In this document: piece by piece, positions 8,524 to 39,573 of the stretch
Layout of the letters: the number at the start of each line of letters is the position of its first letter
How positions within the stretch are numbered: position 1 is the first letter of the stretch
Source: a phage
Direction: 5' to 3' (one strand)
Sequence record: PZ445532.1
Length of the DNA stretch: 44,581 nt
The notes under the pieces: model-generated
Seen by the model: only the letters and a program-made list of their open reading frames with translations
Databases searched by the model: none
What the model was told of the DNA's origin: nothing
Program-made: the position numbers and the translations under genes

Positions 8524-8877
8524 ATGGCGGGCATTAATTACGCGGGCTTAAAGCGGAAAGTCAATCAGCTGATTAAAAAGTACGGCATGACGACTAAGGT
8601 GATGCGTCCTGGTACAGTCGACCGCGTAGACGGCGACGAAGTGGTCACCCCGCCGACCTCGTTTGACGTCATCGGTCTTCGCGAGGAGTACAAGCCTAGC
8701 GAGATCGACGGAACGCGTATCGTTGCCGGTGATGTGAAGTTTTTATGTCGGGCGGTTGAGCAATTGCGGGTGGGCGACCTGGTTAACCTGAACGGCACTG
8801 ACTACCGGGTCATCAACCCTAACCCACTGCAACCGGCGGGAACTACCATGCTGTTTCAACTACAGCTAAGGGGCTAA
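8524..8877 (+). CDS. structural protein, possible head completion protein
   Basis: ORF 8518..8877. The second ATG at 8524 has better spacing from RBS AGGAGG. Confidence 0.5.
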   Translation: MAGINYAGLKRKVNQLIKKYGMTTKVMRPGTVDRVDGDEVVTPPTSFDVIGLREEYKPSEIDGTRIVAGDVKFLCRAVEQLRVGDLVNLNGTDYRVINPNPLQPAGTTMLFQLQLRG

Positions 8878-8878
8878 C

Positions 8879-9472
8879 GTGGCTGAAGTCTACTCATTCG
8901 CCGCCACTATTGCTACGTGGGTGGATAAGACGAAGGAGAACAACGACAAGGCGGTGCGGGCGTACGGTATGCAAATACTCGGACGCCTGATCGAGATCTC
9001 CCCGGTGGGGGATCCCCGCCGGTGGAAAATTAACAGGGCTTACGCGCTTGCCCGCCAGCACGCAAACAAGGTGAACGCCGCACAGCGTCGCAAGAATGGT
9101 GGCAAACTGAAGCGCGGGCAGAAGAAGCACGCCAGCGTGCTGGTATCATTCAAGACTAAAAACGGCAATGTGACATTCCGCCAGCGTGGCTGGGCCGCGA
9201 AGAATTACACCGGCGGACGCTTCCGGGGAAACTGGCAGGTTACGTTCGACCGACCGGCGGTTGGCGCTATAGACCGCGTGGACAAGGCCGGAACGGCAAC
9301 ATTAGCCGCGGGGCGTGAAGTGCTGGCGCATTACGATTCCAGTGAATACGGGTCGATCTGGTTTACTAACAACGTGCCATACGCGCAGCGACTTGAGTAT
9401 GGCTGGAGTAAACAAGCGCCCGCGGGGATTGTTCGCGTCGTAGCGGCAGAAATTAATTCGAAGGTGAAATAA
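8879..9472 (+). CDS. structural protein, possible neck / head-tail joining protein
   Basis: 197-aa ORF with GTG start, tightly packed in the head-to-tail joining region. Confidence 0.5.
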   Translation: MAEVYSFAATIATWVDKTKENNDKAVRAYGMQILGRLIEISPVGDPRRWKINRAYALARQHANKVNAAQRRKNGGKLKRGQKKHASVLVSFKTKNGNVTFRQRGWAAKNYTGGRFRGNWQVTFDRPAVGAIDRVDKAGTATLAAGREVLAHYDSSEYGSIWFTNNVPYAQRLEYGWSKQAPAGIVRVVAAEINSKVK

Positions 9473-9894
9473 TGAGCAATACCGCAATCCGCAAAGCGCT
9501 TAACAGCGTGGTTGATGAGTTATCGGCAAGCCTGAGCACAAGCCAGCGTCCGATTAGGGTTAACTGGGAGAACGTGAGCGGCGACCACGCAAACGGCAGC
9601 GGTGTCTACCTGGAGCCGTACCTGCTACCGGCCCCGACCCAGTTTGTGGGCTTACAGCAGAAGGGCCGGATCTATGCTGGCGTATATCAAGTTGCCGTGG
9701 TGTTCCCGGCTGGCACTGGCACACAGTACGCGAGCGAACTGGCGGACGCCATCGCTACGTCGGATAAGTGGTCGGCGGTGAAGATTTCCGGCGCGTCATT
9801 TCAGCTTCAGGACGCGCCATACACCAGTTCAGTGATTGAAGACGTTGATCGCGCCCGCATCGTGGTTACAGTCCCCTACACCTGTGGCGCCTGA
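9472..9894 (+). CDS. structural protein, possible tail completion/terminator protein
   Basis: 140-aa ORF. Its ATG overlaps the upstream stop (translational coupling). Confidence 0.5.
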   Translation: MSNTAIRKALNSVVDELSASLSTSQRPIRVNWENVSGDHANGSGVYLEPYLLPAPTQFVGLQQKGRIYAGVYQVAVVFPAGTGTQYASELADAIATSDKWSAVKISGASFQLQDAPYTSSVIEDVDRARIVVTVPYTCGA

Positions 9895-9955
9895 TTTGGC
9901 GCAATTCTGCGCGTGCTGTATCATTAAACCGTATATCTAAACAGGAGCTTTCATT

Positions 9956-10681
9956 ATGGGTTATCAACTTCCTAACGGATCAAGCGTCCAGATTGGGTCC
10001 GTACTGGGCAACGGCATCGCTGTTACGGCAGCTACCAACGCCGCCGCGTCGATCTCTGATCTTACGAAAGGTTGCGTTATCACCTGCGCGGCTTCTCATG
10101 GCCTGCGAGTTGGTGACGTGGTTATGTTCACTAAAACCCCGTGGGTCCGTGCGTTGAACCGCGCGTTTATCGTGGGTAAAGTGGCGACTAACGACGTTAC
10201 ACTGGCGCGCTTCGATACTAAAGACGTCACCAAATACCCTACCGGCGCTTTCAGCGTAGGCACACCGGGTGAGGTGGTGAAGGTGTCGAGCTTTGTCGAC
10301 TTCCCGTATATCACTAACGTTGCTGTGTCGGGTGGCGATCAGCAGACTACTACCTTCCAGCCGTTGCAGGTGAATACCGCGATTAGTCTGAACACCACGA
10401 AAAACCCGTTGGTCCAGACCTACACTTTCACCCACGACGAAGAAGACCCGATCCGCCCGATTCTGGAAGACCTGGACGACACACAGAAAACCACTGTGAT
10501 TAAGTTCACTAACCCGGCAGCGGCGAGCGGCAAAGGTGAGATCCGCATTTACCCGGCTAAGGTGTCTTTCCGGAAGATTCCATCGTCTGAAGTAAACAAC
10601 GTGGAAACGGTGGAGTCCACTCTGACCATGCAGTCTGATATGGTTATCTACCGTAAGGATCTGGTCGAGGCATTGTCTTGA
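9956..10681 (+). CDS. major tail (tube) protein
   Basis: 241-aa ORF followed by a strong terminator and then the chaperone and tape-measure genes. Candidate promoter upstream (TTGGCG-17-TATCAT, about 9901..9930). Confidence 0.65.
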   Translation: MGYQLPNGSSVQIGSVLGNGIAVTAATNAAASISDLTKGCVITCAASHGLRVGDVVMFTKTPWVRALNRAFIVGKVATNDVTLARFDTKDVTKYPTGAFSVGTPGEVVKVSSFVDFPYITNVAVSGGDQQTTTFQPLQVNTAISLNTTKNPLVQTYTFTHDEEDPIRPILEDLDDTQKTTVIKFTNPAAASGKGEIRIYPAKVSFRKIPSSEVNNVETVESTLTMQSDMVIYRKDLVEALS

Positions 10682-15876: not shown

Positions 15877-16617
15877 ATGTTAACGAAGAAGGTTAAAAGC
15901 GATATCGCCGCACACGTCGCGGCCTGTCTGCCGGAAGAAGCCTGTGGCCTGGTTGTCATGGCGGGTCGCAAGCAAGTGTTCGTCCCATGTATGAACGTAT
16001 TCGAAGACCCTACCGGCGTGCGCTCACGCAAAGACGCGTTTACCATTAGCGACACAGCCTGGATGGATGCCGAGGATATGGGCGACGTCGTTCGCGTAGT
16101 CCACTCACACCCGGGTCAGCGCGAGTTAACCCCCTCACTGGGCGACGTTAACGGATGCAACGGCAGCGGCGTCGTCTGGACCATCACTAACGAATATGGC
16201 GACTTTATCGAGATAGACCCGGAAGACCCGCCGCTGGTAGGCCGCCGATTTGTTCTCGGAATTACGGATTGTTATGGCCTCGTCATGGACTGGCACAAAA
16301 AGCAGGGAGTAAATTTGCCAGACTTCCGCGTGCCGTATAACTGGTGGGAGACAGGCGAAAATCTGTATATGGATAATTGGTACGGTGCTGGCTTCAGGGA
16401 ATGCGAGGAGAATACGCCGGGGGCGATGGTTATCATGCAGATCAGCGCGCCAGTACCTAACCATGCCGGGATATTCCTTCCGGGCAACCAACTACTCCAC
16501 CATATCTACGGCAGCCTGTCGAGCGTGATACCCTTCCGGTCAGGATTTTTCCGGGACAATGTGGTTAAATGGGTACGTCATAAAGACCTACCGGGGAATA
16601 TAACAGAATGGCAATGA
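15877..16617 (+). CDS. tail assembly protein (lambda gpK-like, JAMM/MPN plus NlpC/P60)
   Basis: EEACG...HSHPGQRELTPSLGD matches the JAMM motif (E, HxH, S, D). Downstream Cys/His region DCYGLV...H is consistent with NlpC/P60. Confidence 0.75.
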   Translation: MLTKKVKSDIAAHVAACLPEEACGLVVMAGRKQVFVPCMNVFEDPTGVRSRKDAFTISDTAWMDAEDMGDVVRVVHSHPGQRELTPSLGDVNGCNGSGVVWTITNEYGDFIEIDPEDPPLVGRRFVLGITDCYGLVMDWHKKQGVNLPDFRVPYNWWETGENLYMDNWYGAGFRECEENTPGAMVIMQISAPVPNHAGIFLPGNQLLHHIYGSLSSVIPFRSGFFRDNVVKWVRHKDLPGNITEWQ

Positions 16618-17225
16618 CCACATTTAAATTATACGGCGTTTTAGGGCGTCGATTCGGTAAAGTGCATAAGCTGGACTGCTTCACTCCGGGCGAGGGTATC
16701 ACCGGCCTGTGCGTGAAGTTACCCGGCTTACAGGACTTTCTAATGTCGGCCCACCTGAACAATATGATGTTCAAGGTGCGCAAAGGCGACCACACGATGA
16801 CCGGCTATGATGAGCTGGGCGAGTTCCACGGCAACCGCGTAGTTACCATCGCGCCGGTTATGACGGGCGCAAAAAGAGGGTTGGGACAATTGCTGGCGGG
16901 TGTCGCGATCGTTGTGGCGTCGTTCTATACGGGCGGACTTGCTACTGCCGCTTTCGGGGCTTCGGCGGCGACCGCTGCCGCTATCGGGACGGCGACGTTT
17001 TCGTTCGGGATGTCGATGGCGCTGGGTGGCGTTATGCAATTGCTGTCGCCACAACCGAAAGGATTGCAGACAAGGCAGGACGTGGATAACAAGGCGTCGT
17101 ATGCGTTCGGCGGGCCTGTAAACACGACCGCGCAAGGTACAGCACTTGGTGTATTATGGGGTGAGCGTGAGATCGGCGGCGCTATTATTTCAGCCGGAAT
17201 CGTAACCGAGGACTTGAACGAATGA
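16608..17225 (+). CDS. tail assembly protein (lambda gpI-like)
   Basis: 205-aa ORF with a hydrophobic Gly/Ala-rich C-terminal half, between the K-like and J-like genes. Confidence 0.6.
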   Translation: MAMTTFKLYGVLGRRFGKVHKLDCFTPGEGITGLCVKLPGLQDFLMSAHLNNMMFKVRKGDHTMTGYDELGEFHGNRVVTIAPVMTGAKRGLGQLLAGVAIVVASFYTGGLATAAFGASAATAAAIGTATFSFGMSMALGGVMQLLSPQPKGLQTRQDVDNKASYAFGGPVNTTAQGTALGVLWGEREIGGAIISAGIVTEDLNE

Positions 17226-30564: not shown

Positions 30565-32856
30565 TTATTTCCTATACCTCATCATGCAATCTCCTTCCGC
30601 GGCAAGCGGGAAGCCTTTCGCCCAAACCGGCAGGTCGCACATCAGCGCGCACAACTCCTCGGTTGTGTAGTCGTCGGTATCCGGCACTTCGGTTATCAGT
30701 TCATCGTGTACGGACAGTACGATCTCATACCCTGCAGCTTCAACGCCCGGCATGGACCACGCGAGGATATCGCGACACAGCGCCTGTACGATGTTTTCCG
30801 TTAGTTTGCCGCCGTAGGTATACTGGAAGCCCCACTGGCGCGTAGTCTGATTCTCGCCCTGGTATTTGATGCGGGTGCTGGTGCGCTTCTTACCGGTGTC
30901 TTCGTCGATCTCGGTCGTGACAGACAGCGCGATGCCGGGATAGCTCATGATGCGCCCTGAAGGCAACTCAATTTTAAGCCACCACCCCGCCGCGTTCGGA
31001 TCGTCGCGCTCCTCGTCGAAGGTTGGGTCATGCTTCGCCTTCGTTCGCACTATCTTGAGCGCTTTCCTGCCATCCTGGCGAACGTTCGCGCCAGCCCAGT
31101 ATGCTTTGCCCGGATTGCGGATCGCGCAGAGCACCGCGTCTTCCAGTTCAGCCCAAAATGCTACCGTCTTCGGGTGAGCCTCACGCCACATACGTTTGAT
31201 CGCATCGCACGTCAGCCATACGTTTTTCGGCAGTATGTAAGTTGGGCGCTCGTCTTTCTTGCCAGGCTTCGGCGGGCGCTTAGCTTCGTTAATGCGGGCG
31301 TATTCATAGCCCCGTTTCGCCGCTGCCCAAATATGATCGGGGAATGTGCCCTTCATGACGTCCGCCATCGCATACAGGTCGAGGCCCAGGTTTTTAGCAA
31401 ACTGCAGGAACGCGGCAACGCCGCCACCATAACCCAGCCCCAATTCGCACGCCTTACCAATCTGGCGTAAGTCTTTGCGGTTGGCTTTGATGTATTCCGG
31501 GTCGAGGCCAAACATCTTACCGGCAGTTTCACAATAGATATCGCGACCCGCCCTAAACACCATTAGCGCGGTTTTCTCGCCAGCGATCCAGGCGAGGCCA
31601 CGCCCTTCCACGTTGGAATAGTCCGCTACGACAAACTTCTTGCCCTTAGCCGGAATAATGCACCCGCGAACGGTCGAGGCTGTTAACTTCGATATGTCAT
31701 ACGCCCAGTGTGCCGTCCCGCGTAACAGGGAATTGATGCCGTTGGTGAGCATGTGCGACCGGACCCAAAAAGAAACGTCGCTCTCGCCATCCCGGCGCTT
31801 AATCTTCCCTTCGTGGTCGTCGCTATACTCGCCGCGTGCCAGGTTTTGCGGCTGGAAGCCCTTACCGGCCCAGCGTAGCGTGCGCTTTGCCCCACCATAC
31901 TGAAGACAACCACGGCGGCGACCATCGGCAGACAGCCCATTTACGAGCGGATTGTACTTAGTCGATGCCGTTGATGACGCACCGAGGCGCATCTCGATAA
32001 GCACTTTGCCTTCGTCGGGGAAGTCCGGGTCTTCCAGCAGGTCGTTAAGTGTGGATTTCTGCGCGTTGTGGATTGTGAACGCAGGCGCAAGGTCGCGCAG
32101 CGCTGGCAGGAAGTCATTGCCGGTCAGCTTACCGCCGAAGCGCTCCCAGGCTTCTTCCTTCAGCTCTTCTTTATGCGCCTGCACCGCTTTGATCGCGGCG
32201 TTCGCCAGGTCAACGTCCACATAGAAGCCGCGGTCATTGATCAACTGGTCTATACGCAGGATTTCGTCTTCCTTCGGCGTGTTACCCCAGTCCGGTATGC
32301 GCCAGTAGACTTCCCTCATAGCTATAATATCCAGCGCGGCATAGCGCAGGAATTTAGCCCACTCCTCGGGGTGCGTCTCGCGCGTGTAGCGGCGGATTTT
32401 GTAGGTCTTAGGGGTTGGCTTACAGAATCGTTTGATCAGCGCCTTGCCCGCCTTATCCTTCGCGTGCTCTGCGTCAACGCCCAGCACCTGGCATTGCATA
32501 TCGAGGCTACCCGGCAGCGCGTGCCGAAAGGCCATAATCATGGTATCTTCGATCTGGCCTACCGGCAGGTCAATGCCCCACTTCTCGCGAATAACCAGGC
32601 GGTCAAACAGAAGGCCGTTAGCCATCACGATTTTTGCTTTCTTGCGGGATACCTGGCGGAGCGCCTTGCGCAGTTCACGCGGCATTGTAGGGGACTCGGT
32701 GCAATCCCATGTCTGCACGCGCCCCTCGTCGATGGCGTAGGTGCAAATCATAATCTCGGTTGTCGGGTGCTCCGCGTAGGCGTATGCGCCAACTTTCTTC
32801 AGGTCCACCCCGCTAAATGTCTCGGTATCGAGAAAAAGGCGTTCGAAGTCTTTCAT
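30565..32856 (-). CDS. DNA polymerase, family A, with N-terminal 3'-5' exonuclease
   Basis: 763 aa. Exo I motif FLDTET. Pol motif A VVADYSNVEGR, motif B RQIGKACELGLGYGGG, motif C LSVHDELITEV. Confidence 0.95.
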   Translation of the reverse strand: MKDFERLFLDTETFSGVDLKKVGAYAYAEHPTTEIMICTYAIDEGRVQTWDCTESPTMPRELRKALRQVSRKKAKIVMANGLLFDRLVIREKWGIDLPVGQIEDTMIMAFRHALPGSLDMQCQVLGVDAEHAKDKAGKALIKRFCKPTPKTYKIRRYTRETHPEEWAKFLRYAALDIIAMREVYWRIPDWGNTPKEDEILRIDQLINDRGFYVDVDLANAAIKAVQAHKEELKEEAWERFGGKLTGNDFLPALRDLAPAFTIHNAQKSTLNDLLEDPDFPDEGKVLIEMRLGASSTASTKYNPLVNGLSADGRRRGCLQYGGAKRTLRWAGKGFQPQNLARGEYSDDHEGKIKRRDGESDVSFWVRSHMLTNGINSLLRGTAHWAYDISKLTASTVRGCIIPAKGKKFVVADYSNVEGRGLAWIAGEKTALMVFRAGRDIYCETAGKMFGLDPEYIKANRKDLRQIGKACELGLGYGGGVAAFLQFAKNLGLDLYAMADVMKGTFPDHIWAAAKRGYEYARINEAKRPPKPGKKDERPTYILPKNVWLTCDAIKRMWREAHPKTVAFWAELEDAVLCAIRNPGKAYWAGANVRQDGRKALKIVRTKAKHDPTFDEERDDPNAAGWWLKIELPSGRIMSYPGIALSVTTEIDEDTGKKRTSTRIKYQGENQTTRQWGFQYTYGGKLTENIVQALCRDILAWSMPGVEAAGYEIVLSVHDELITEVPDTDDYTTEELCALMCDLPVWAKGFPLAAEGDCMMRYRK

Positions 32857-33023
32857 TGCTTAATCCTCACTACGGCGTCAGCGCTGCCGATCATGGAGAA
32901 TATACCGTCGGAAAGGGCTATCTCCTCGCCGTTGTTGCGGATCTCGGCAACTGTGAAATATTCCCCCAGTAGCTTGGACCATACTCGCATTCCGACTTTT
33001 ACTTCGCTGGCTTTAATGCGCAT
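32853..33023 (-). CDS. small hypothetical ORF translationally coupled to the DNA polymerase gene
   Basis: 56 codons (MRIKASEVKVGMRVW...VVRIKQ*). Its stop overlaps the polymerase ATG (ATGA). Not in the ORF track (below 60 aa). Confidence 0.3.
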   Translation of the reverse strand: MRIKASEVKVGMRVWSKLLGEYFTVAEIRNNGEEIALSDGIFSMIGSADAVVRIKQ

Positions 33024-33034
33024 TTTTCATTGTC

Positions 33035-33058
33035 CTATTAAAAAGCCCGCATTAAGCG
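33035..33058 (-). terminator. rho-independent terminator (minus strand)
   Basis: On the minus strand AGCCCGC-TTAAT-GCGGGCT followed by TTTTTAAT, directly after the SSB gene stop. Confidence 0.6.
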
Positions 33059-33081
33059 GGCTTGAATAGTGGGCTTTGCCC

Positions 33082-33807
33082 TTAGCGGCGGCGACGTTTG
33101 CGAGGTTTGTCGTCGTCGTCGTCGTCGTCCTCATCTTCGTCATCGCGTGGCTTACGACGTTTACGAGGTTTTTTATCTTCATCATCGTCATCGCGACGTT
33201 TTGACTTTTTGGACTTGCGCGGGCTTTCATCTTCGTCATCGTCGCCCAGGTCCTCGTCTGAGCAAGAAGATCCGCCACCGCCGAAGGCTTCGCCGTCGTC
33301 ACGGAATCGCAGACCCAGCAAGCCAGCCCCTAGACCCTTGCCGTTGGTATTGTTCCACGCCCAGATATCGAGGGACACGTTGCAATAACAACCTGAGTAG
33401 ATCTCCTGGCCTTCGATCTCGTCGCCTTCTACGGTCAGACCCTGTTCGGTCTGCTTCTCGCCTAGTGACGTTTGAATGTTTGGCTGTTTGAACGATTTAG
33501 CGTTGATGTACAACATGCCTTCGAATTCTTCGGTTACTTCGTCGCGCTCGTCACCGTCACGAACTGCGCATTCCTTAGAATCCTGGGCGTAGTGGCGGTC
33601 CATCCACTTATCGGCATTCTTCTCAGATTTCAGCTTGTCGGTGAGCACTGCGCGCGCTGCCGCTTCCACTTTGTCCACCTGCGGATCTTCTTTATCAAGA
33701 AGAATCACGGCGCGGTATGCCGGTTTTTGTCCATCCTGTTTAGGGGTATCACGTTCCCAAATTTTAAGGAAACATACACGCACATTTTTCAGGTTGACTT
33801 TAGCCAT
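33082..33807 (-). CDS. ssDNA-binding protein (T7 gp2.5-like) with mixed-charge low-complexity C-terminal tail
   Basis: 241 aa from MAKVNLKNVR (RBS GAGGAA). Core ...DIWAWNN...GLLGLRF...GEAFGGGG resembles the gp2.5 ...LQLESVMLVELATFGGG block. C-terminus alternates poly-Asp/Glu and Lys/Arg blocks, encoded by GAC/GTC triplet repeats. Confidence 0.65.
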   Translation of the reverse strand: MAKVNLKNVRVCFLKIWERDTPKQDGQKPAYRAVILLDKEDPQVDKVEAAARAVLTDKLKSEKNADKWMDRHYAQDSKECAVRDGDERDEVTEEFEGMLYINAKSFKQPNIQTSLGEKQTEQGLTVEGDEIEGQEIYSGCYCNVSLDIWAWNNTNGKGLGAGLLGLRFRDDGEAFGGGGSSCSDEDLGDDDEDESPRKSKKSKRRDDDDEDKKPRKRRKPRDDEDEDDDDDDDKPRKRRRR

Positions 33808-33897
33808 TTTCCAATTCCTCATTTTCACATGTATCGGGGTTATTGGAAGCCACCCCGTTCGGCTTGGTTGCTAATCTACTTGGTTGCGCCTGAGCGG

Positions 33898-34140
33898 TCA
33901 AGCATTTTCATTAAAAAGATTTCGGGTCACGTAGTTGGAGGCGTTCTCAATCCAGCTTAACGGCGGGCGATCGATGTTCTTACCCACCCAGTCGACGGCA
34001 GCTTCGCTATACCCGTTATCCAGCCAGCGGGTCGGATGGCGAATCATCCAGGCCACCATTAACACGCCTTGCACGCAATGCAGGATAAAGCCCAGCGCGC
34101 CGAGCAAAAACATCAATAAGATTGCGAATACTTTATTCAT
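33898..34140 (-). CDS. small membrane protein
   Basis: 80 aa. Hydrophobic helices AILLMFLLGALGFIL and VLMVAWMI. Confidence 0.5.
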   Translation of the reverse strand: MNKVFAILLMFLLGALGFILHCVQGVLMVAWMIRHPTRWLDNGYSEAAVDWVGKNIDRPPLSWIENASNYVTRNLFNENA

Positions 34141-35563
34141 TGCTTAAGTCCTCGTCAGTGGCCTCCGACCACGCAGGGCGCGGGTCGTCGATTGGGGCTA
34201 ACACCGGTTTGGCAGGTGCGCGCGTGATTTTATCACACAGCTTCGCCCACACTTTCGGTTTTTCGTCCTTCAGTACCTTTTCGGCATCTGTCGGGCTGAG
34301 CAATGTTTCTTTGTACATCACATCGCGCTTGATCCGGGCCTTCGTGAAGATTTCAATCACTTCGCTCTCGTCCGCCCACTTGCGGATTCCTTCCTTACCG
34401 GCAACCATCTTGAGGCCCAGCGATTCGCCATCGCCAGCCATAACCGCCTTGAATACCGCGGACTCGATAGCCTTGATGTGCTGGCGCATTGCGTCCAGGC
34501 CTTCATAAGCCTTGCGCAGTTCCGCCGCGCTCATAGCACCGGGGGCCGCTTCTTCCTTACCACGCTTCGCACGTCGTGCCGCCTTCCTGGCTTCGCGGGC
34601 CATATTGCGGTCATGGTTGGCGCATTCTTCCTCTGTCGCAATACTCACGTCGTCGCCCAGGTCTTCGTCGGTTGCCGTTGGGGGTGTCATCGTGTCGATT
34701 GCGGCCTTAGCGCGGACACTACACTGATCCGCAAATCGGCACCACTGGCACGCATCAACGCTGGGACGGAAGTCGGCACGGGTAAGTCCCTTCTTGCCTC
34801 GGGAATACGCCTCCAGTGCGGCAATAGCGCGCTTGGATGCAAACTTCGCGAATATCTCCAGCGCTTCTACCGAAATATCCCACTCCGACGCCCCGCCGCA
34901 ATACGGCTGGAAGATAACCAGGCGAACGGTAGTAATGTCGTACATGGTTTGCAGCTTGCGCAGCAGGCCGAGCGCGTACAACATAAGCTGTTTGTTTTCT
35001 TTCGCCTCGACCTTATGCCGCCCGGTCTTCAGGTCGCCAACAATCAGCATGTACGTCCCATCGGTCTTTTTCATGACCATGACCATATCGGCAGTACCGA
35101 ACGTTTTAATCCTGTTGCCGTCGATCTCGTAGCCTGAGTGAAGGACGCGGGTCAGATCGGCGCGCATCTCAAGCTGGACAAACTCCGCCACTTCGAGGAG
35201 CGGTCGCCAGTGGTCGATGTACGCGTCGCACTGTTTCACCATGTCGTCGTTGACCAGCACGCCGCCTTTCGGTGCTTTAGGGTGTGCCTTTACTGGCCCC
35301 TTGCCTTCGTTCTCGACGTAGCACCCTTTATACGTCTTCGCGGTTATCAGCTTCTCACCGGCGATAATGCGGTTTAGCACCACCTCAGATACTGTGTGCA
35401 TACTCGTACCGTTAATCGCGGCTTGCCCGGATTCGTTCGGGATATCTTTTTCCACCACCAGGGCAGCAGGGCAACCCATCCATTTTTTAGCACCGGATGG
35501 ACCAAGTAATGAGTGTTCCGTATTGCTACCGGATTGCGTTTTACGTTTTGGTTTAATCGCCAT
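34133..35563 (-). CDS. RecB-family / Cas4-like PD-(D/E)xK exonuclease with Fe-S cysteine cluster
   Basis: 476 aa. Nuclease core ...IVGDLKTG...QLMLYALGL. C-terminal cysteines CQWCRFADQC. Confidence 0.7.
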   Translation of the reverse strand: MAIKPKRKTQSGSNTEHSLLGPSGAKKWMGCPAALVVEKDIPNESGQAAINGTSMHTVSEVVLNRIIAGEKLITAKTYKGCYVENEGKGPVKAHPKAPKGGVLVNDDMVKQCDAYIDHWRPLLEVAEFVQLEMRADLTRVLHSGYEIDGNRIKTFGTADMVMVMKKTDGTYMLIVGDLKTGRHKVEAKENKQLMLYALGLLRKLQTMYDITTVRLVIFQPYCGGASEWDISVEALEIFAKFASKRAIAALEAYSRGKKGLTRADFRPSVDACQWCRFADQCSVRAKAAIDTMTPPTATDEDLGDDVSIATEEECANHDRNMAREARKAARRAKRGKEEAAPGAMSAAELRKAYEGLDAMRQHIKAIESAVFKAVMAGDGESLGLKMVAGKEGIRKWADESEVIEIFTKARIKRDVMYKETLLSPTDAEKVLKDEKPKVWAKLCDKITRAPAKPVLAPIDDPRPAWSEATDEDLSNE

Positions 35564-36968: not shown

Positions 36969-37298
36969 ATGAATATCAACGACGCAATCGAAATGTTAAC
37001 GAAGACTGTTTGCAGTGAGACAAGCCGGTCATGGGCGTATACCGATGCCGTGGGGGCGGTGCTATTTGAGATTGAACGTCTGCGCAGTGTAGAAAAAGAA
37101 TTACGCGCCAGGCTGGAATTGCTCAACGGTACGGCGGCGAGCAAGCTGCAGAAGCACAATGAAGAAATGGAAGAATACAAAAAGCAGGTTATACGTTTGC
37201 GCGCCGAGGGAAAATCCTGGGCGATGATTGCCGAGTTGACTGGGATTAATCAGAGCACAGTGCGCTCCTGGGTACGCAATAATAAAACTTCTAAGTAA
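36969..37298 (+). CDS. HTH DNA-binding protein (putative transcriptional regulator)
   Basis: 109 aa. C-terminal helix-turn-helix-like KSWAMIAELTGINQSTVRSWVRN. Confidence 0.6.
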   Translation: MNINDAIEMLTKTVCSETSRSWAYTDAVGAVLFEIERLRSVEKELRARLELLNGTAASKLQKHNEEMEEYKKQVIRLRAEGKSWAMIAELTGINQSTVRSWVRNNKTSK

Positions 37299-37308
37299 GG
37301 CCACGGCA

Positions 37309-39573
37309 ATGAGCTTAATTAAATTCGCTGTAACAAGGCCCGCTAAAAAAGGCGAAAAAGCCAGGGCGGAAAACTTCCAGATGACCACCGATGAATTTTT
37401 CGAATTTATCAAAGATGCGAAAGAAATATCCTCGGTGCACATCAACAAGACGGAAGATAAAGCCGAGTATGCGCGCCGCAAGCGTAAGGCCGACGGCATC
37501 GTGGCGTATACCAGTGACGGATTGCGTCGTAAGACCAGTGCGGTGGACCGCTCGATCCTGTTCTTCGATATTGACCGCACCGACACCCGCACCCTACGCC
37601 GCTGCCGTAAGGCGTTCACTGACGCGGGGCTGGAACACGTATTCCACACCACAACCGGCGACCGTCACCCATTGAAAGGCGGCACGCGTTGCGCTCGATT
37701 CCTGGTGCTCACTGACAAGCCTGTACCGGCTGAAGACCTGGGCCGCGTCCAGTATGCACTATTACACCAACTGGGTCTGTCAGATGTGGACTTCGACGAT
37801 TGCACGAAAGACACAAACCGCCTGATGTACCTGCCACACCAGCAGTCTGTTATTAAGTGCCACTATGGCAAGCGCGCACGCGTACGTCGTCTGCTCCGCC
37901 TGGCTGACAAGCTGGGAGTTGAGAAAGAGGAAGTCCGTCGCGAACTGACCCCGGGCGACGACGCAGTGGCAGACGGCATTCTGGACTGGTGCTTCCAGGC
38001 AGGATTCGAGGAGTTATCTTCCGGGCGGGGCTATGAAGTGCCGTGCCCGAACGAACATCTGCACAGCGGCGAAGGGTCCACCGCTATTATGGTCAAGGAT
38101 GGCGAGATCCGTTTCAAGTGTATGCACACCGGCAACGAGTGTTGCTCGGAACTGAATAGACACCAGCACCTGGCGCTGCGTCTTATCGGGATCCCGGACC
38201 ACCTGAACGTCGAGCCACACAATATGTCCCGTAAGCAAATCGCCGCCATCCTTCCGGGGCTGGACGACGAGGAAGTCGAATCCTTATATGAACATATTGT
38301 TGATGCGGTTGGCGACGGCGAAGAATACGGCGTGTGCACCGATGCGGATCTGGATAACGAGCCGGTTGCGCTGTTCAGTAAGCACGACCCGATTATCGAG
38401 GGGTTGATTAACTTTAAATCGACCTGGTACATGGCGGGTGAGTCGAATATCGGTAAGTCTTTCTACGTGCTGGGCCAGATGGGCGCGGTTGCCGCGGGTA
38501 TTCCGTTTGGTGGCGCGAAGGTCGTCCAGTCTCATTGCTTCTATTTCGACGCGGAAGGTGGCGAAGCCTCCAACCAGCGTAAAGAAGCATTGCAGATTAA
38601 ATATGAGCACGACCTGGACAAGCTGCACATTATCGATCTGCAGTCACGCGGCTGGGATATCACCAGCAAATCGGGCTTGCGCGAAGTTATCAGCTTTATC
38701 AACCGCACCGCTAACGGCGAACCGGTTGGCCTGGTGGCGTTCGACTCACTAAACCAGACTGTTGCGTTGCGGTCCGCCGAGGCTAAACCGTTCGACGAGA
38801 ACAACGCCAGCGATATGGGTGAAGTGGTCAAAGCGCTGAAGGCCATCGCGGAAAATACAGGTGGCAGTGCGGGCGTCATCCACCACCCGGCTAAAGGTGC
38901 AAACGGCAGCAGAACGCCACGCGGGTCCGGCGCGCTGCATGGTGCTGTCGATTCTGCGTTCTTCCTGGAACAGCCGGACGACAACCAGCCCGGACAATTG
39001 AACCTGTATCACGAAAAGTCACGTAACGGCATCAAGCAAGCGCCGCGCGGCTTCGTCCTGCTCAAGTGCAAGGTGAAGGTGGATCTCCGCAAGTCAGAAG
39101 CGTTCGAGGCGCACCAGTCCACCAGCACCGGGCCAGACTTCGGCGACGTGGTTGCCGGATGGGACGTCAAGCCGATTGCCTCCACGCCACGCGACGAGAC
39201 TCTCTACCTCGTACCGGTTGCCCTGGCACCGTTCGCTATTGAACAGGCGAAGGCGGCGGGCAAGGCCGCGGTTAAGGAAGAGAACACCGCCGGACCGCGC
39301 AACGAAAAAGAGAAAGTGCTTTATGCGGCACTGGAAAAACTGATGGAAGATAACCCGTACCATACTGGATTCAGTAAATCGGCAATTGTCCGCCAGGCGG
39401 GACTCGCAAAAGGTGGCACTTCGACGAAGGCAATCGACGATATGGTGGAGCGCGGGGTAATAGGTTTTTATACAGATCCGCACACCGGGGCCATCTATGG
39501 GTCTTCTAATTTGGTCATCAAATCGGATATCCCTATCACGCTTTCCGCGACCGATGACGATTTAAAAGATTAA
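37309..39573 (+). CDS. DNA primase-helicase (primase domain fused to RecA-like NTPase)
   Basis: 754 aa. Cys/His-rich segment CPNEHLHSGEG...FKCMHTGNECC. Walker A GESNIGKS and Walker B-like LVAFDSLNQ in the C-terminal half. Confidence 0.8.
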   Translation: MSLIKFAVTRPAKKGEKARAENFQMTTDEFFEFIKDAKEISSVHINKTEDKAEYARRKRKADGIVAYTSDGLRRKTSAVDRSILFFDIDRTDTRTLRRCRKAFTDAGLEHVFHTTTGDRHPLKGGTRCARFLVLTDKPVPAEDLGRVQYALLHQLGLSDVDFDDCTKDTNRLMYLPHQQSVIKCHYGKRARVRRLLRLADKLGVEKEEVRRELTPGDDAVADGILDWCFQAGFEELSSGRGYEVPCPNEHLHSGEGSTAIMVKDGEIRFKCMHTGNECCSELNRHQHLALRLIGIPDHLNVEPHNMSRKQIAAILPGLDDEEVESLYEHIVDAVGDGEEYGVCTDADLDNEPVALFSKHDPIIEGLINFKSTWYMAGESNIGKSFYVLGQMGAVAAGIPFGGAKVVQSHCFYFDAEGGEASNQRKEALQIKYEHDLDKLHIIDLQSRGWDITSKSGLREVISFINRTANGEPVGLVAFDSLNQTVALRSAEAKPFDENNASDMGEVVKALKAIAENTGGSAGVIHHPAKGANGSRTPRGSGALHGAVDSAFFLEQPDDNQPGQLNLYHEKSRNGIKQAPRGFVLLKCKVKVDLRKSEAFEAHQSTSTGPDFGDVVAGWDVKPIASTPRDETLYLVPVALAPFAIEQAKAAGKAAVKEENTAGPRNEKEKVLYAALEKLMEDNPYHTGFSKSAIVRQAGLAKGGTSTKAIDDMVERGVIGFYTDPHTGAIYGSSNLVIKSDIPITLSATDDDLKD

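What the first reader, a model, noticed from the sequence alone, without database searches (positions are those of the whole stretch)
33082..33240. SSB-like protein with an alternating acidic/basic tail encoded by triplet repeats
The gp2.5-like SSB ends in DDDEDESPRKSKKSKRRDDDDEDKKPRKRRKPRDDEDEDDDDDDDKPRKRRRR. gp2.5-type SSBs normally end in a purely acidic tail that contacts the polymerase and helicase. Here, polybasic blocks are interleaved. The region is encoded by GAC/GTC triplet runs, which are prone to slippage, so tail length may vary between isolates.
Basis: seen in the sequence. Interest (0 to 1): 0.45.

Follow-up and report, generated by a model that had tools for sequence, protein, structure and literature searches.

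The report
Phage SSB with alternating-charge repeat tail
The DNA-coating protein of this E. coli phage ends in a floppy tail of alternating acidic and basic blocks whose copy number differs between closely related phages. Just before the repeats lies a short acidic motif that the phage's helicase-primase and exonuclease also carry at their ends.

Summary
Window 33082..33807 (-) encodes a 241-aa Enc34/DUF2815-type, T7 gp2.5-like SSB of a Dhillonvirus-like E. coli phage. After the OB fold and a GGGG linker come 62 residues that are 79% charged. They form three [acidic run]-x-P-R-[basic run] units and end in PRKRRRR. Charge segregation far exceeds chance (kappa 0.56 against 0.10 in shuffles), and AF2 predicts disorder.

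The predicted length variation holds. Twenty-two close relatives have tails of 39-85 aa in five unit architectures. The variation is mostly gain or loss of whole 16-20-aa units, not GAC slippage alone. Indels stay in frame and synonymous changes dominate, so the peptide is under selection.

This tail is not a one-off. Every sampled member of the window's SSB clade has it, whereas most of the family has short acidic tails ending in a hydrophobic residue.

One new point emerged. The motif S/T-D-E/D-D-L, just before the repeats, also ends the helicase-primase and the DUF2800 exonuclease, here and in six relatives at 41-55% identity. Enc34 likewise shares DEDEV between primase, exonuclease and SSB.

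I read this motif as the docking element, as in T7 gp2.5 and gp4. The near-neutral repeats would be an electrostatic add-on. That function is inferred, not shown.

The parts
33082..33807 (-). SSB gene, 241 aa plus stop. The open frame extends upstream to GTG 33828.
   Evidence: PF10991 E 1.4e-31; phrog_112 E 7e-58. GAGGA lies 8 nt before ATG 33807. Translation checked.
33298..33804 (-). OB-fold ssDNA-binding domain of the Enc34 ORF6 / T7 gp2.5 type.
   Evidence: AF2 pLDDT is above 90 over this stretch. Foldseek hits: 4klk 7.8e-13, 5odl 3.6e-12, 1je5 5.4e-7. phmmer against PDB sequences finds 4klk, 4jg2 and 5odj.
33271..33282 (-). GGGG linker between the OB fold and the tail.
   Evidence: Translation. 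AF2 pLDDT drops below 60 from here onward.
33247..33261 (-). SDEDL, an acidic-hydrophobic short linear motif within SSCSDEDLGDD (33238-33270). Proposed partner-docking element.
   Evidence: Its position aligns with the family-wide proximal tail motif (DDFxDL in short-tailed members). The same motif ends the helicase-primase and the exonuclease in the window and in six relatives. [ST]D[DE]DL occurs 4 times in the window proteome against 0.05 expected.
33193..33246 (-). Repeat unit 1, GDDDEDE-SPRKSKKSKRR (type A basic block).
   Evidence: This unit is duplicated in most relatives (architecture AABC).
33145..33192 (-). Repeat unit 2, DDDDED-KKPRKRRKPR (type B basic block).
   Evidence: The unit is absent in relatives with AC or AAC architecture.
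33085..33144 (-). Repeat unit 3, DDEDEDDDDDDD-KPRKRRRR (type C, the C-terminal poly-Arg end). It contains the perfect (GAC)7 run at 33109-33129.
   Evidence: PRKRRRR is the C-terminus in all 22 close relatives. The last six residues are basic in 71 of 76 clade members.
33040..33063 (-). Terminator-like hairpin, AAGCCCGC-TTAAT-GCGGGCTT followed by TTT, 19 nt after the SSB stop codon.
   Evidence: Read directly from the sequence. Some relatives annotate it as 'terminator' (H91 and H95). The consensus scan did not call it because its T-run rule is not met.
39544..39570 (+). C-terminus of the helicase-primase (gene 37309..39573), SATDDDLKD. This is the same motif as in the SSB.
   Evidence: phrog_3228, replicative helicase-primase, E = 0. 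The motif ends the protein in 5 relatives at 45-49% identity.
34136..34168 (-). C-terminus of the DUF2800 / PD-(D/E)XK exonuclease (gene 34133..35563), SEATDEDLSNE. Same motif.
   Evidence: PF10926 E 1.3e-65. The motif ends the protein in 6 relatives at 41-55% identity.
34649..34678 (-). Second, internal copy of the motif in the exonuclease, TATDEDLGDD. Seven residues are identical to the SSB copy.
   Evidence: It is absent from three of the distant relatives checked, L019-L021.

Best explanation
The region is the intrinsically disordered C-terminal tail of the phage's replicative SSB (Enc34/DUF2815 family, T7 gp2.5-like fold).

Shown here, the tail has four layers:
1. A Gly linker.
2. A conserved acidic-hydrophobic motif, S-D-E-D-L. 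The helicase-primase and the DUF2800 exonuclease of the same phage carry it at their own C-termini.
3. Two to four (here three) near-charge-neutral units of the form [5-15 D/E]-x-P-R-[6-9 K/R/S].
4. An invariant poly-Arg end.

The units are gained and lost by recombination or slippage between the repeated coding DNA. The changes are nearly always in frame. The peptide is under purifying selection, and the net tail charge stays about as negative as in ordinary short acidic SSB tails.

Inferred: SDEDL is the functional counterpart of the acidic C-terminal tips of T7 gp2.5 and gp4. It would dock SSB, helicase-primase and exonuclease in turn on one common basic site, most likely on the DNA polymerase. 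The block-polyampholyte extension would be an electrostatic add-on specific to the very abundant SSB. In this reading its acidic blocks mimic DNA and can occupy the OB cleft or partner basic patches. Its xPRK-type basic blocks and Arg end pair with acidic blocks, in cis or on neighbouring SSBs, or touch DNA. That would tune SSB-SSB cooperativity or clustering on ssDNA and control how exposed the docking motif is.
For: Family and fold.

Disorder: AF2 pLDDT is 50-62 with no secondary structure from the Gly linker onward (residues ~181-248 of the 248-aa ORF that was modelled).

Non-random blockiness: 5 sign changes against 24.3 +/- 3.4; kappa 0.56 against 0.10.

Clade-wide conservation: all 76 sampled members of the window's SSB clade, down to about 50% identity, have alternating tails, and 71 of 76 end basic. 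By contrast, 140 of 238 sampled family members have short tails (median 26.5 aa) that are acidic with a hydrophobic end.

Charge: net tail charge is -6.4 +/- 3.1 in the clade and -8.3 +/- 3.2 for short tails. The correlation with length is only r = -0.21.

Unit boundary: Pro lies within 3 residues after the acidic run at 153 of 160 transitions, although tails are only 6% Pro overall.

Copy-number variation: five architectures in 22 close relatives, and a perfect 54-nt tandem duplicate in L017.

Selection on the peptide: 33 of 36 GenBank length differences are multiples of 3. In equal-length pairs the tail shows 69 synonymous to 24 non-synonymous codon differences.

Shared motif. It occurs 4 times against 0.05 expected, all in the three replication proteins. 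In Enc34, the primase, exonuclease and SSB all end in DEDEV or DDEV.

T7 precedent: the gp4 tail peptide bound to gp5 was used as the template for the gp2.5 tail (PMC12339929). The gp2.5 tail contacts polymerase and primase-helicase (PMC5686142).

Enc34 ORF6: removing the acidic tail gives dsDNA binding equal to ssDNA binding (PMC5686142).
Against: No binding, genetic or structural data exist for this tail or for the shared motif, so the docking partner is a guess by analogy.

AF2 does not dock any part of the tail on the OB fold.

In the SSB the motif is internal, whereas in the helicase-primase and exonuclease it sits 1-3 residues from the C-terminus. The binding mode may therefore differ.

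Tails as short as two units occur (P0002, net charge -1). Three records have frameshifted tails: P0005 and P0009 and L017. If these are not sequencing or assembly errors, much of the extension is dispensable for plaque formation.

Escape mutations in Dhillonvirus SSBs seen in the parts of the supplement read map to the OB fold, not the tail.
Confidence: 0.6

Rival explanations
1. Neutral low-complexity expansion. The repeats are slippage or recombination debris, tolerated because each unit is nearly charge-neutral. Only the upstream acidic motif matters.
For: Copy number turns over quickly, with five architectures among phages about 90% identical. Two-unit tails exist. Frameshifted tails occur in deposited isolates. 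Net charge is nearly independent of length.
Against: The alternating tail is kept in all 76 sampled clade members, down to about 50% identity. A basic end is kept in 71 of 76. The Pro at 96% of acid-to-basic boundaries is conserved. Synonymous changes outnumber non-synonymous ones 69 to 24 in the tail. Length changes are almost always in frame. Similar repeats occur in other branches of the family.
Confidence: 0.15
2. Contingency locus for immune evasion. The slippage-prone repeats let the phage vary the SSB tail quickly to escape host systems that sense SSB (Retron-Eco8, Hachiman, ShosTA, AbpAB).
For: The SSB of the Dhillonvirus phages SECphi4/6/18 triggers Retron-Eco8. The tail is the most variable part of the protein among isolates.
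Against: The escape mutations seen in these phages lie in the OB fold or the promoter (T56P, F106V, N152H). Deleting the T7 SSB C-tail does not affect Retron-Eco8 activation (PMC13402713). The only perfect triplet run is 7 repeats long, so hypermutability should be modest.
Confidence: 0.1
3. The repeats act at the DNA level, as iterons of a replication origin or as a regulatory site embedded in the gene, in the way lambda ori lies inside gene O.
For: Direct DNA repeats with 54-nt spacing lie inside a replication gene.
Against: Synonymous divergence per codon is the same in the tail (0.13) as in the OB-coding part (0.12), so there is no extra constraint on the DNA. Relatives at about 50% identity keep the charge pattern while the peptide sequence differs. 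Indels respect the reading frame.
Confidence: 0.03
4. Programmed frameshifting in the repeat region produces a second SSB isoform with the alternative-frame tail (..MTKMK..AHYSSPLNAGFLIGQ).
For: The alternative frame is open for 91 codons through the tail and the terminator. Three database proteins are fused to it.
Against: The open frame follows from the GAY/GAR/AAR/CGY codon composition, and the third frame is full of stops. The three frameshift points are all different. In L017 the shift lies at a deletion junction, not at a slippery site.
Confidence: 0.02

Closest known systems
Enc34 ORF6 SSB (PF10991/DUF2815; PDB 5odj, 5odk, 5odl)
   Same: Same Pfam family and fold. Same replication module of DUF2800 exonuclease, SSB and family-A polymerase. 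Both have a disordered C-terminal tail after the OB fold. In both phages the tail motif is shared with the exonuclease and the primase or helicase-primase.
   Different: The ORF6 tail is short (about 29 aa, 16 of them D/E), purely acidic, and ends in ..WDEDEV. The window protein has 62 residues with three basic blocks and ends in RRRR. Its shared motif is internal rather than C-terminal.
T7 gp2.5, together with the gp4 helicase-primase acidic C-terminal tail
   Same: Same fold class (1je5, E 5.4e-7). In T7, SSB and helicase-primase carry similar acidic tails used to contact the polymerase. The window phage shows the same logic with SDEDL, TDDDL and TDEDL.
   Different: Sequence identity is only 12-14%. 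The gp2.5 tail has 22 acidic and 3 basic residues and ends in an essential C-terminal Phe (sequence; role of the Phe from titles cited). Here the tail has near-equal acidic and basic blocks and no hydrophobic end. In addition, a third protein, the exonuclease, carries the motif.
T4 gp32 (basic N-terminal 'LAST' segment plus acidic C-terminal domain)
   Same: From my own knowledge, not tested here: gp32 is an SSB that uses both a basic and an acidic disordered segment. The basic one drives cooperative SSB-SSB binding. The acidic one handles autoinhibition and partner contacts.
   Different: Unrelated sequence and fold family. In gp32 the two segments lie at opposite ends of the protein and are single, not tandemly repeated and not variable in copy number.
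E. coli SSB intrinsically disordered linker plus acidic tip (DDDIPF)
   Same: From my own knowledge: a long low-complexity spacer between the OB fold and a docking motif, which tunes cooperativity and condensate formation. Some distant PF10991 members with alternating repeats even end in DDDIPF (P0081).
   Different: The E. coli linker is rich in Gly, Gln and Pro and uncharged. Its docking tip comes after the linker. In the window protein the motif precedes the charged repeats, and there is no acidic tip at the end.
SPKK / xPRK-type basic DNA-binding turns of histone H1 and H2B tails
   Same: From memory only, so a lead and not a test. The basic blocks start with S/A/K-P-R-K, which resembles the S-P-K-K minor-groove-binding unit.
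   Different: No homology is implied. Here the basic units alternate with long acidic runs and sit on an ssDNA-binding protein.

Membership tests
PF10991 Enc34_ssDNA-bd (DUF2815) SSB family | Match to the family HMM above the curated cut-off | tested here: met
   110 bits against a cut-off of 26, E 1.4e-31, covering profile positions 2-172 of 176.
PF10991 Enc34_ssDNA-bd (DUF2815) SSB family | gp2.5-like OB fold | tested here: met
   The AF2 model has pLDDT above 90 over residues 9-177 of the 248-aa ORF. Foldseek hits: 4klk 7.8e-13, 5odl 3.6e-12.
PF10991 Enc34_ssDNA-bd (DUF2815) SSB family | Conserved ssDNA-contact residues of ORF6 (aromatic stacks, Lys46, Arg112, Asn154) | not tested
   Only near-invariant columns were noted: D91, Y144 and G146 in the 248-aa numbering. 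No residue-by-residue mapping onto 5odl was done.
PF10991 Enc34_ssDNA-bd (DUF2815) SSB family | Replication-module context (DUF2800 exonuclease upstream, family-A DNA polymerase downstream) | tested here: met
   for the window; for relatives; for Enc34.
PF10991 Enc34_ssDNA-bd (DUF2815) SSB family | Short, purely acidic C-terminal tail ending in a hydrophobic residue (typical of the family, not part of the HMM) | tested here: not met
   The tail has 27 acidic and 22 basic residues and ends in RRRR. The typical state is seen in 140 of 238 sampled members.
T7 gp2.5-type SSB (functional class) | Structural similarity to gp2.5 | tested here: met
   1je5, E 5.4e-7, probability 1.00, 12-14% identity.
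T7 gp2.5-type SSB (functional class) | Acidic tail with a C-terminal aromatic residue that docks on the polymerase | tested here: not met
   The C-terminus is KPRKRRRR. A possible substitute, the internal SDEDL, exists but its binding has not been tested.
T7 gp2.5-type SSB (functional class) | ssDNA binding, strand annealing and interaction with polymerase and helicase | not testable with these tools
   Needs biochemistry.
Bacterial SSB family (PF00436, E. coli SSB type) | Match to the SSB HMM, with a Gly/Pro-rich linker and a DDDIPF tip | tested here: not met
   PF10991 was the only Pfam hit. The tail composition is D/E/K/R-rich, not Gly/Pro-rich, and the protein does not end in DDDIPF.
Strong block polyampholyte disordered region (descriptive class) | Fraction of charged residues above 0.35, low net charge per residue, high charge segregation, predicted disorder | tested here: met
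   FCR 0.79, NCPR -0.08, kappa 0.56 against 0.10 +/- 0.05 in shuffles. AF2 pLDDT 50-62 with no secondary structure.

The most novel reading that the evidence does not exclude
Phages with this replication module would use a lineage-specific 'tip code'. One short acidic-hydrophobic peptide (TDEDL in Dhillonvirus-like phages, DEDEV in Enc34) is placed on SSB, helicase-primase and exonuclease, so that all three compete for a single hub site. In the Dhillonvirus clade the SSB has added a copy-number-tunable block-polyampholyte tail. That tail would gate this motif, or drive SSB clustering or condensation on ssDNA, by pairing acidic with basic blocks. It would be an electrostatic switch not described for any SSB.
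Probability: 0.25. Interest if true: 0.7.

Novelty: new variant of a known kind. Interest (0 to 1): 0.5.

Why it matters
SSB tails are the hubs that organise replisomes, and the accepted picture is an acidic tail with a hydrophobic tip. This work shows a whole clade of gp2.5-like phage SSBs with a different design. That clade includes model coliphages such as HK578 and SECphi4/18, whose SSB triggers Retron-Eco8. In these proteins the acidic docking motif is internal, and it is followed by near-neutral acidic/basic repeats and a poly-Arg end. Natural variants with 2, 3 and 4 units are already available.

The same motif on the helicase-primase and exonuclease, and the parallel DEDEV sharing in Enc34, gives a concrete hypothesis that can be tested cheaply. 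It concerns how replisomes of this module are wired, and how an abundant SSB avoids out-competing scarcer partners. The repeats also explain why SSB gene length and annotation are inconsistent across more than 150 deposited Dhillonvirus genomes.

Tried and rejected
Literature. Searches on Enc34 plus SSB, DUF2815, 'alternating / acidic and basic / C-terminal tail', SECphi18 plus SSB, and Retron-Eco8 plus SECphi4 found no description of the alternating tail or of the shared motif. The Enc34 structure paper discusses only an acidic tail.

DNA-level role. An iteron or origin function was rejected because synonymous divergence is equal in the tail and the OB-coding parts.

Programmed frameshift. 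This was rejected because the open alternative frame follows from codon composition and the frameshift points differ between records.

Escape mutations. I looked for tail mutations in the Stokar-Avihail supplement. The SSB changes seen (T56P, F106V, N152H, and the promoter) lie outside the tail. Only some parts of the file were read.

Structure. AF2 gave no confident docking of the tail on the OB fold.

Terminator. The consensus scan did not report the hairpin after the gene, because its T-run rule fails by one T.

Method notes. A first regex-based tail definition was too crude, and an alignment-based one replaced it. One search timed out and was rerun. A weak C-terminal TEDLNE in the tail-assembly protein (16608..17225) was judged a chance match.

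Independent origins. The idea that alternating tails arose several times rests only on a neighbour-joining tree of 156 columns. It is left open.
Full report
WHAT IS THERE

The window is a Dhillonvirus-like E. coli siphophage. The region 32800-34200 is about 94-95% identical in DNA to phages UHP65, EK99P-1, phiEco273 and SSL-2009a, and 155 phage records match it. The finding lies at the 3' end of a minus-strand ORF, 33082..33828.

The likely start is ATG 33807, which has GAGGA 8 nt upstream. This gives 241 aa beginning MAKVNLK, as annotated in relatives. A sigma-70-like promoter match lies at 33901-33873. A hairpin followed by a T-run lies at 33040-33063, just after the stop codon.

The protein matches Pfam PF10991 (Enc34_ssDNA-bd, formerly DUF2815; 110 bits against a cut-off of 26) and PHROG 112, 'Gp2.5-like ssDNA binding and annealing protein'. 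Its nearest solved relatives by sequence are 4klk, 4jg2 and Enc34 ORF6 (5odj, 5odk), and they cover only the first ~200 residues of the ORF. An AF2 model built from 55 homologues has pLDDT above 90 for residues 9-177 of the 248-aa ORF. Foldseek places this model next to the DUF2815 structures (E about 1e-12) and T7 gp2.5 (1je5, E 5.4e-7).

The neighbouring genes are a DUF2800 / PD-(D/E)XK exonuclease upstream, and a 56-aa gene plus a family-A DNA polymerase downstream. A helicase-primase lies at 37309..39573 on the other strand.

CHECK OF THE OBSERVATION

The quoted peptide is correct apart from one residue at the start of the coordinates. After FGGGG the tail reads SSCSDEDL | GDDDEDE-SPRKSKKSKRR | DDDDED-KKPRKRRKPR | DDEDEDDDDDDD-KPRKRRRR.

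Of its 62 residues, 49 are charged: 27 acidic and 22 basic. There are only 5 changes of charge sign along the chain, against 24.3 +/- 3.4 in shuffles, and none of 100,000 shuffles reached 5. The charge-segregation parameter kappa is 0.56, against 0.10 +/- 0.05 for shuffles. AF2 gives pLDDT 50-62 and no secondary structure from the Gly linker to the end.

Only the last acidic block is a perfect triplet run, (GAC)7 at 33109-33129. The other blocks use mixed codons. The main DNA periodicity is 54-63 nt, which is one protein unit.

DOES THE LENGTH VARY?

Yes. I collected 22 close relatives: 13 intact IMG/VR loci, two GenBank loci, three database proteins, SECphi4 and SECphi18 from a paper's supplement, and the window itself. 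Their tails after GGGG are 39-85 aa long.

I classified units by their basic block: A = PRKSKKSKRR, B = PRKRRKPR, C = terminal PRKRRRR. The architectures are AABC (11, plus SECphi18), ABC (4, including the window), AC (3), AAC (2) and BC (1). The acidic runs range from 5 to 15 residues.

In a spread sample of GenBank records, the span across the tail differs from the window by -15, -3, 0, +3, +6, +9, +51, +54, +57, +60 or +69 nt. Of 36 differences, 33 are multiples of three.

One relative, vB_EcoS-101114B2, carries a perfect 54-nt tandem duplicate of unit A. Either duplication there is recent, or the assembly collapsed across the repeats. The same record has an out-of-frame deletion junction in an acidic run.

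The main mode, however, is gain or loss of whole units between repeats, with codon-level changes in the acidic runs added on top.

IS THE PEPTIDE SELECTED?

In pairs of relatives with tails of equal length, the tail shows 69 synonymous and 24 non-synonymous codon differences. The OB fold shows 134 and 22. Synonymous differences per codon are the same in both parts, 0.13 and 0.12.

The amino-acid sequence of the tail is therefore under purifying selection, though weaker than on the OB fold. There is no sign of extra constraint on the DNA itself. This argues against an iteron or origin role for the repeats.

HOW UNUSUAL IS IT IN THE FAMILY?

A search of 1.84 billion representative proteins with the OB domain alone gave 2,354 relatives, 294 of them at E <= 1e-10. 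Most of the best 150 are 175-205 aa long. They have short tails of the type ..DDFEDL..DDDLI, acidic with a hydrophobic end.

I aligned 238 family members and cut each at the end of the OB fold. This gave three groups:
- 140 have short acidic tails, median 26.5 aa, net charge -8.3 +/- 3.2.
- 76 form one neighbour-joining clade that includes the window. All 76 have alternating tails, and in 71 of them the last six residues are basic (PRRRRR, RRRSRR, RRRNRD).
- 22 more have alternating repeats (3-8 basic blocks) but end in a classical tip such as DDDDI, DDDIPF or DDDDF. They are scattered among short-tailed members. This hints at repeated origins, but a neighbour-joining tree of 156 columns cannot settle it.

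The word-based search is biased towards alternating tails, because tail words seed its hits. The sample is the fairer one, and by eye only a small minority of its sequences (very roughly 7%) have alternating tails.

In the window's clade the net tail charge is -6.4 +/- 3.1 and barely depends on length (r = -0.21). The units are thus near-neutral modules. They lengthen the tail while leaving it about as negative as an ordinary short tail.

At 153 of 160 acid-to-basic transitions in the clade, a proline lies within three residues after the acidic run. The figure is 64 of 74 in the other alternating group. Tails are only 4-6% proline overall. The unit therefore has a conserved form, [D/E]n-x-P-R/K.., and is not merely a stretch of charge.

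A SHARED MOTIF

I scanned the window for D-[ED]-D-[LF]. The segment just before the repeats, SSCSDEDLGDD, recurs in the exonuclease both internally (TATDEDLGDD) and at its C-terminus (SEATDEDLSNE*). It also recurs at the C-terminus of the helicase-primase (SATDDDLKD*).

In a crude proteome of 66 ORFs (14,316 aa), [ST]D[DE]DL occurs four times, all in these three proteins. The expectation is 0.05, and none of 3,000 shuffles reached three.

I fetched six contigs whose SSBs are about 50% identical to the window's. Their helicase-primases are 45-49% identical and their exonucleases 41-55% identical. In every case both proteins end in the motif, although the preceding residues differ. The SSB has the motif right after its Gly linker:

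| Contig | Helicase-primase end | Exonuclease end | SSB, after linker |
|---|---|---|---|
| L019 | VASDEDLNS* | QASDEDLS* | RANDDDLDD |
| L025 | AASDEDLE* | SATDEDLE* | TATDDDLED |
| L026 | KATHEDLE* | AASDDDLA* | RATDDDLDG |
| L020 | LDDSDLEN* | AVKDDLGD* | ADDNDLNDD |
| L021 | ANAEDLE* | VSTDDLS* | ASADDLDDN |
| L027 | gene not on the contig | AASDEDLS* | SAEDEDLED |

Two more distant members show a looser version. In L022 the exonuclease ends SDDFDDLDNE*, while the SSB has EDDFDEDI and a DDDDF* tip. In L024 the exonuclease ends ..DDDLFGEDPLSDLI*, while the SSB ends ..EDEDDEMFA*. A third, L023, does not show it clearly.

In phage Enc34 itself, the primase ends FDDEDEV*, the exonuclease ends DDEDEDDDEV*, and the SSB (ORF6) ends EWDEDEV*. 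The Enc34 structure paper does not mention this.

The pattern matches the T7 precedent. There, gp2.5 and the gp4 helicase-primase both carry acidic C-terminal tails used to contact the polymerase. A gp4 tail peptide bound to gp5 (PDB 6P7E) has served as the template for placing the gp2.5 tail (PMC12339929; PMC5686142).

HOW IT MOST LIKELY WORKS

Shown:
- A gp2.5-like SSB with a disordered tail.
- A conserved acidic-hydrophobic motif shared with two other replication proteins.
- A variable number of near-neutral [acidic]-xPR-[basic] units under peptide-level selection.
- A basic C-terminus that is conserved in the clade.

Inferred: SDEDL is the docking element that corresponds to the gp2.5 and gp4 tips, and the polymerase is the most likely hub. 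The repeats would be an SSB-specific electrostatic module. Their acidic blocks can act like the DNA-mimicking acidic tail of gp2.5 or Enc34 ORF6; removing the ORF6 tail makes it bind dsDNA as well as ssDNA (PMC5686142). Their basic blocks and Arg end can pair with acidic blocks, in cis or on neighbouring SSBs, or contact DNA. A strongly segregated polyampholyte of this kind is expected to fold back on itself and to self-associate (general polymer-physics knowledge, not tested here).

The outcome I favour is tuning of SSB-SSB cooperativity or clustering on ssDNA, together with control of how exposed the docking motif is. That would keep the abundant SSB from simply out-competing the helicase-primase and exonuclease. 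I put about 0.6 on the overall reading: a disordered tail made of a docking motif plus a selected polyampholyte extension. I put considerably less on the specific gating or cooperativity mechanism.

RIVALS

- Neutral low-complexity drift (0.15). It fits the fast turnover, the two-unit tails and the frameshifted records. It is hard to square with clade-wide retention, the conserved Pro boundary, the conserved basic end and the synonymous excess.
- A contingency locus for evading SSB-sensing defences (0.10). It is attractive because the SSB of SECphi4/6/18 triggers Retron-Eco8. However, the escape mutations seen are in the OB fold or the promoter, and the T7 C-tail is dispensable for Retron-Eco8 activation (PMC13402713).
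- A DNA-level element (0.03) and a programmed frameshift (0.02). Both are disfavoured for the reasons given above.

NOVELTY AND VERDICT

The gene and its family are known, and the sequences sit in more than 150 deposited genomes. Neither the alternating tail nor the motif shared by SSB, helicase-primase and exonuclease appears in any paper I could find. One study of the homologous SECphi4 SSB simply left out the 'flexible C-terminal residues'.

I rate this a new variant of a known kind. It is a real, selected and naturally polymorphic variant of the SSB C-terminal tail, with a plausible but untested mechanism and direct experimental handles. Interest is about 0.5.

Noticed in passing
window 33040-33063 (-); L008, L010 and L017 at the equivalent site: The loop of the hairpin between the SSB stop and the 56-aa gene differs among relatives (TTAAT, ATTAA, TTATT). 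In the Stokar-Avihail supplement, in what appears to be the Borvo block of the escaper table, SECphi4 escapers carry changes in this same intergenic region: an ATTAA->TTAAT loop inversion, +TT, and G->T. This suggests that read-through into the 56-aa gene and the polymerase matters.
   Followed up: partly
window 32853-33023 (-): A conserved 56-aa gene of unknown function (phrog_10102) lies between the SSB and the DNA polymerase. Its SECphi18 homologue is frameshifted (E21fs) in a defence-escape mutant listed in the same supplement. The rows read nearby concern DNA-polymerase escapers, so the defence system is probably Borvo, but its name was not seen in the parts read.
   Followed up: partly
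L016 (PQ843332.1 Escherichia phage P-GXEC-L2P5), locus about 560-850: The last part of the SSB gene plus the terminator (..DDDEDEAPRKRRRR*GQSPLFKPA*) appears about three times in tandem, in different frames, after the annotated stop. The record is 88.6 kb, twice the usual genome size, so this may be an assembly artefact.
   Followed up: no
P0005 (vB_EcoS-22664B1), P0009, L017 (vB_EcoS-101114B2, MZ234014.1): These deposited or assembled SSBs run into the alternative frame within the tail (..MTKMK..AHYSSPLIAGFLLGQ). The shift point differs in each record. In L017 it lies at a deletion junction next to a perfect 54-nt duplication. It is unclear whether these are real variants or errors from assembling repeats.
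   Followed up: partly
window 33807-33828 (-): The open frame starts at GTG 33828, but the ribosome-binding site (GAGGA) fits ATG 33807. Deposited relatives disagree on the start (MAKVNLK against MRNEEMKMAKVNLK).
   Followed up: yes
relatives (for example Pubbukkers, PS2, P-GXEC-L2P5); L019 and L026: Some relatives have a DNA polymerase gene of 3189 nt, against 2292 nt here. One is annotated as intein-containing. L019 and L026 have an HNH endonuclease gene inserted between the SSB and the polymerase.
   Followed up: no
window 36969-37298 (+): A 109-aa protein just upstream of the helicase-primase matches a PHROG labelled 'transposase' (phrog_9366) and, weakly, HTH DNA-binding families. In relatives a small HTH_3 protein lies beside the helicase-primase gene, so this is more likely a regulator than a transposase.
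   Followed up: no
hits H23 and others: Records named Campylobacter phage A144, an Acinetobacter phage, a Salmonella phage and Sodalis phage SO-1 match this E. coli Dhillonvirus region at about 92% identity. The unexpected host labels may reflect contamination or mislabelling. SO-1 is a known relative.
   Followed up: no
L028 (Enc34, NC_019524) ORF9, locus 8856-10334: The SNF2-type helicase of Enc34 also ends in an acidic stretch (..SVIWDDEED*) that resembles the DEDEV tips of its primase, exonuclease and SSB. The SNF2 helicases checked in three window-clade relatives (L019-L021) end basic or neutral and lack the motif.
   Followed up: partly
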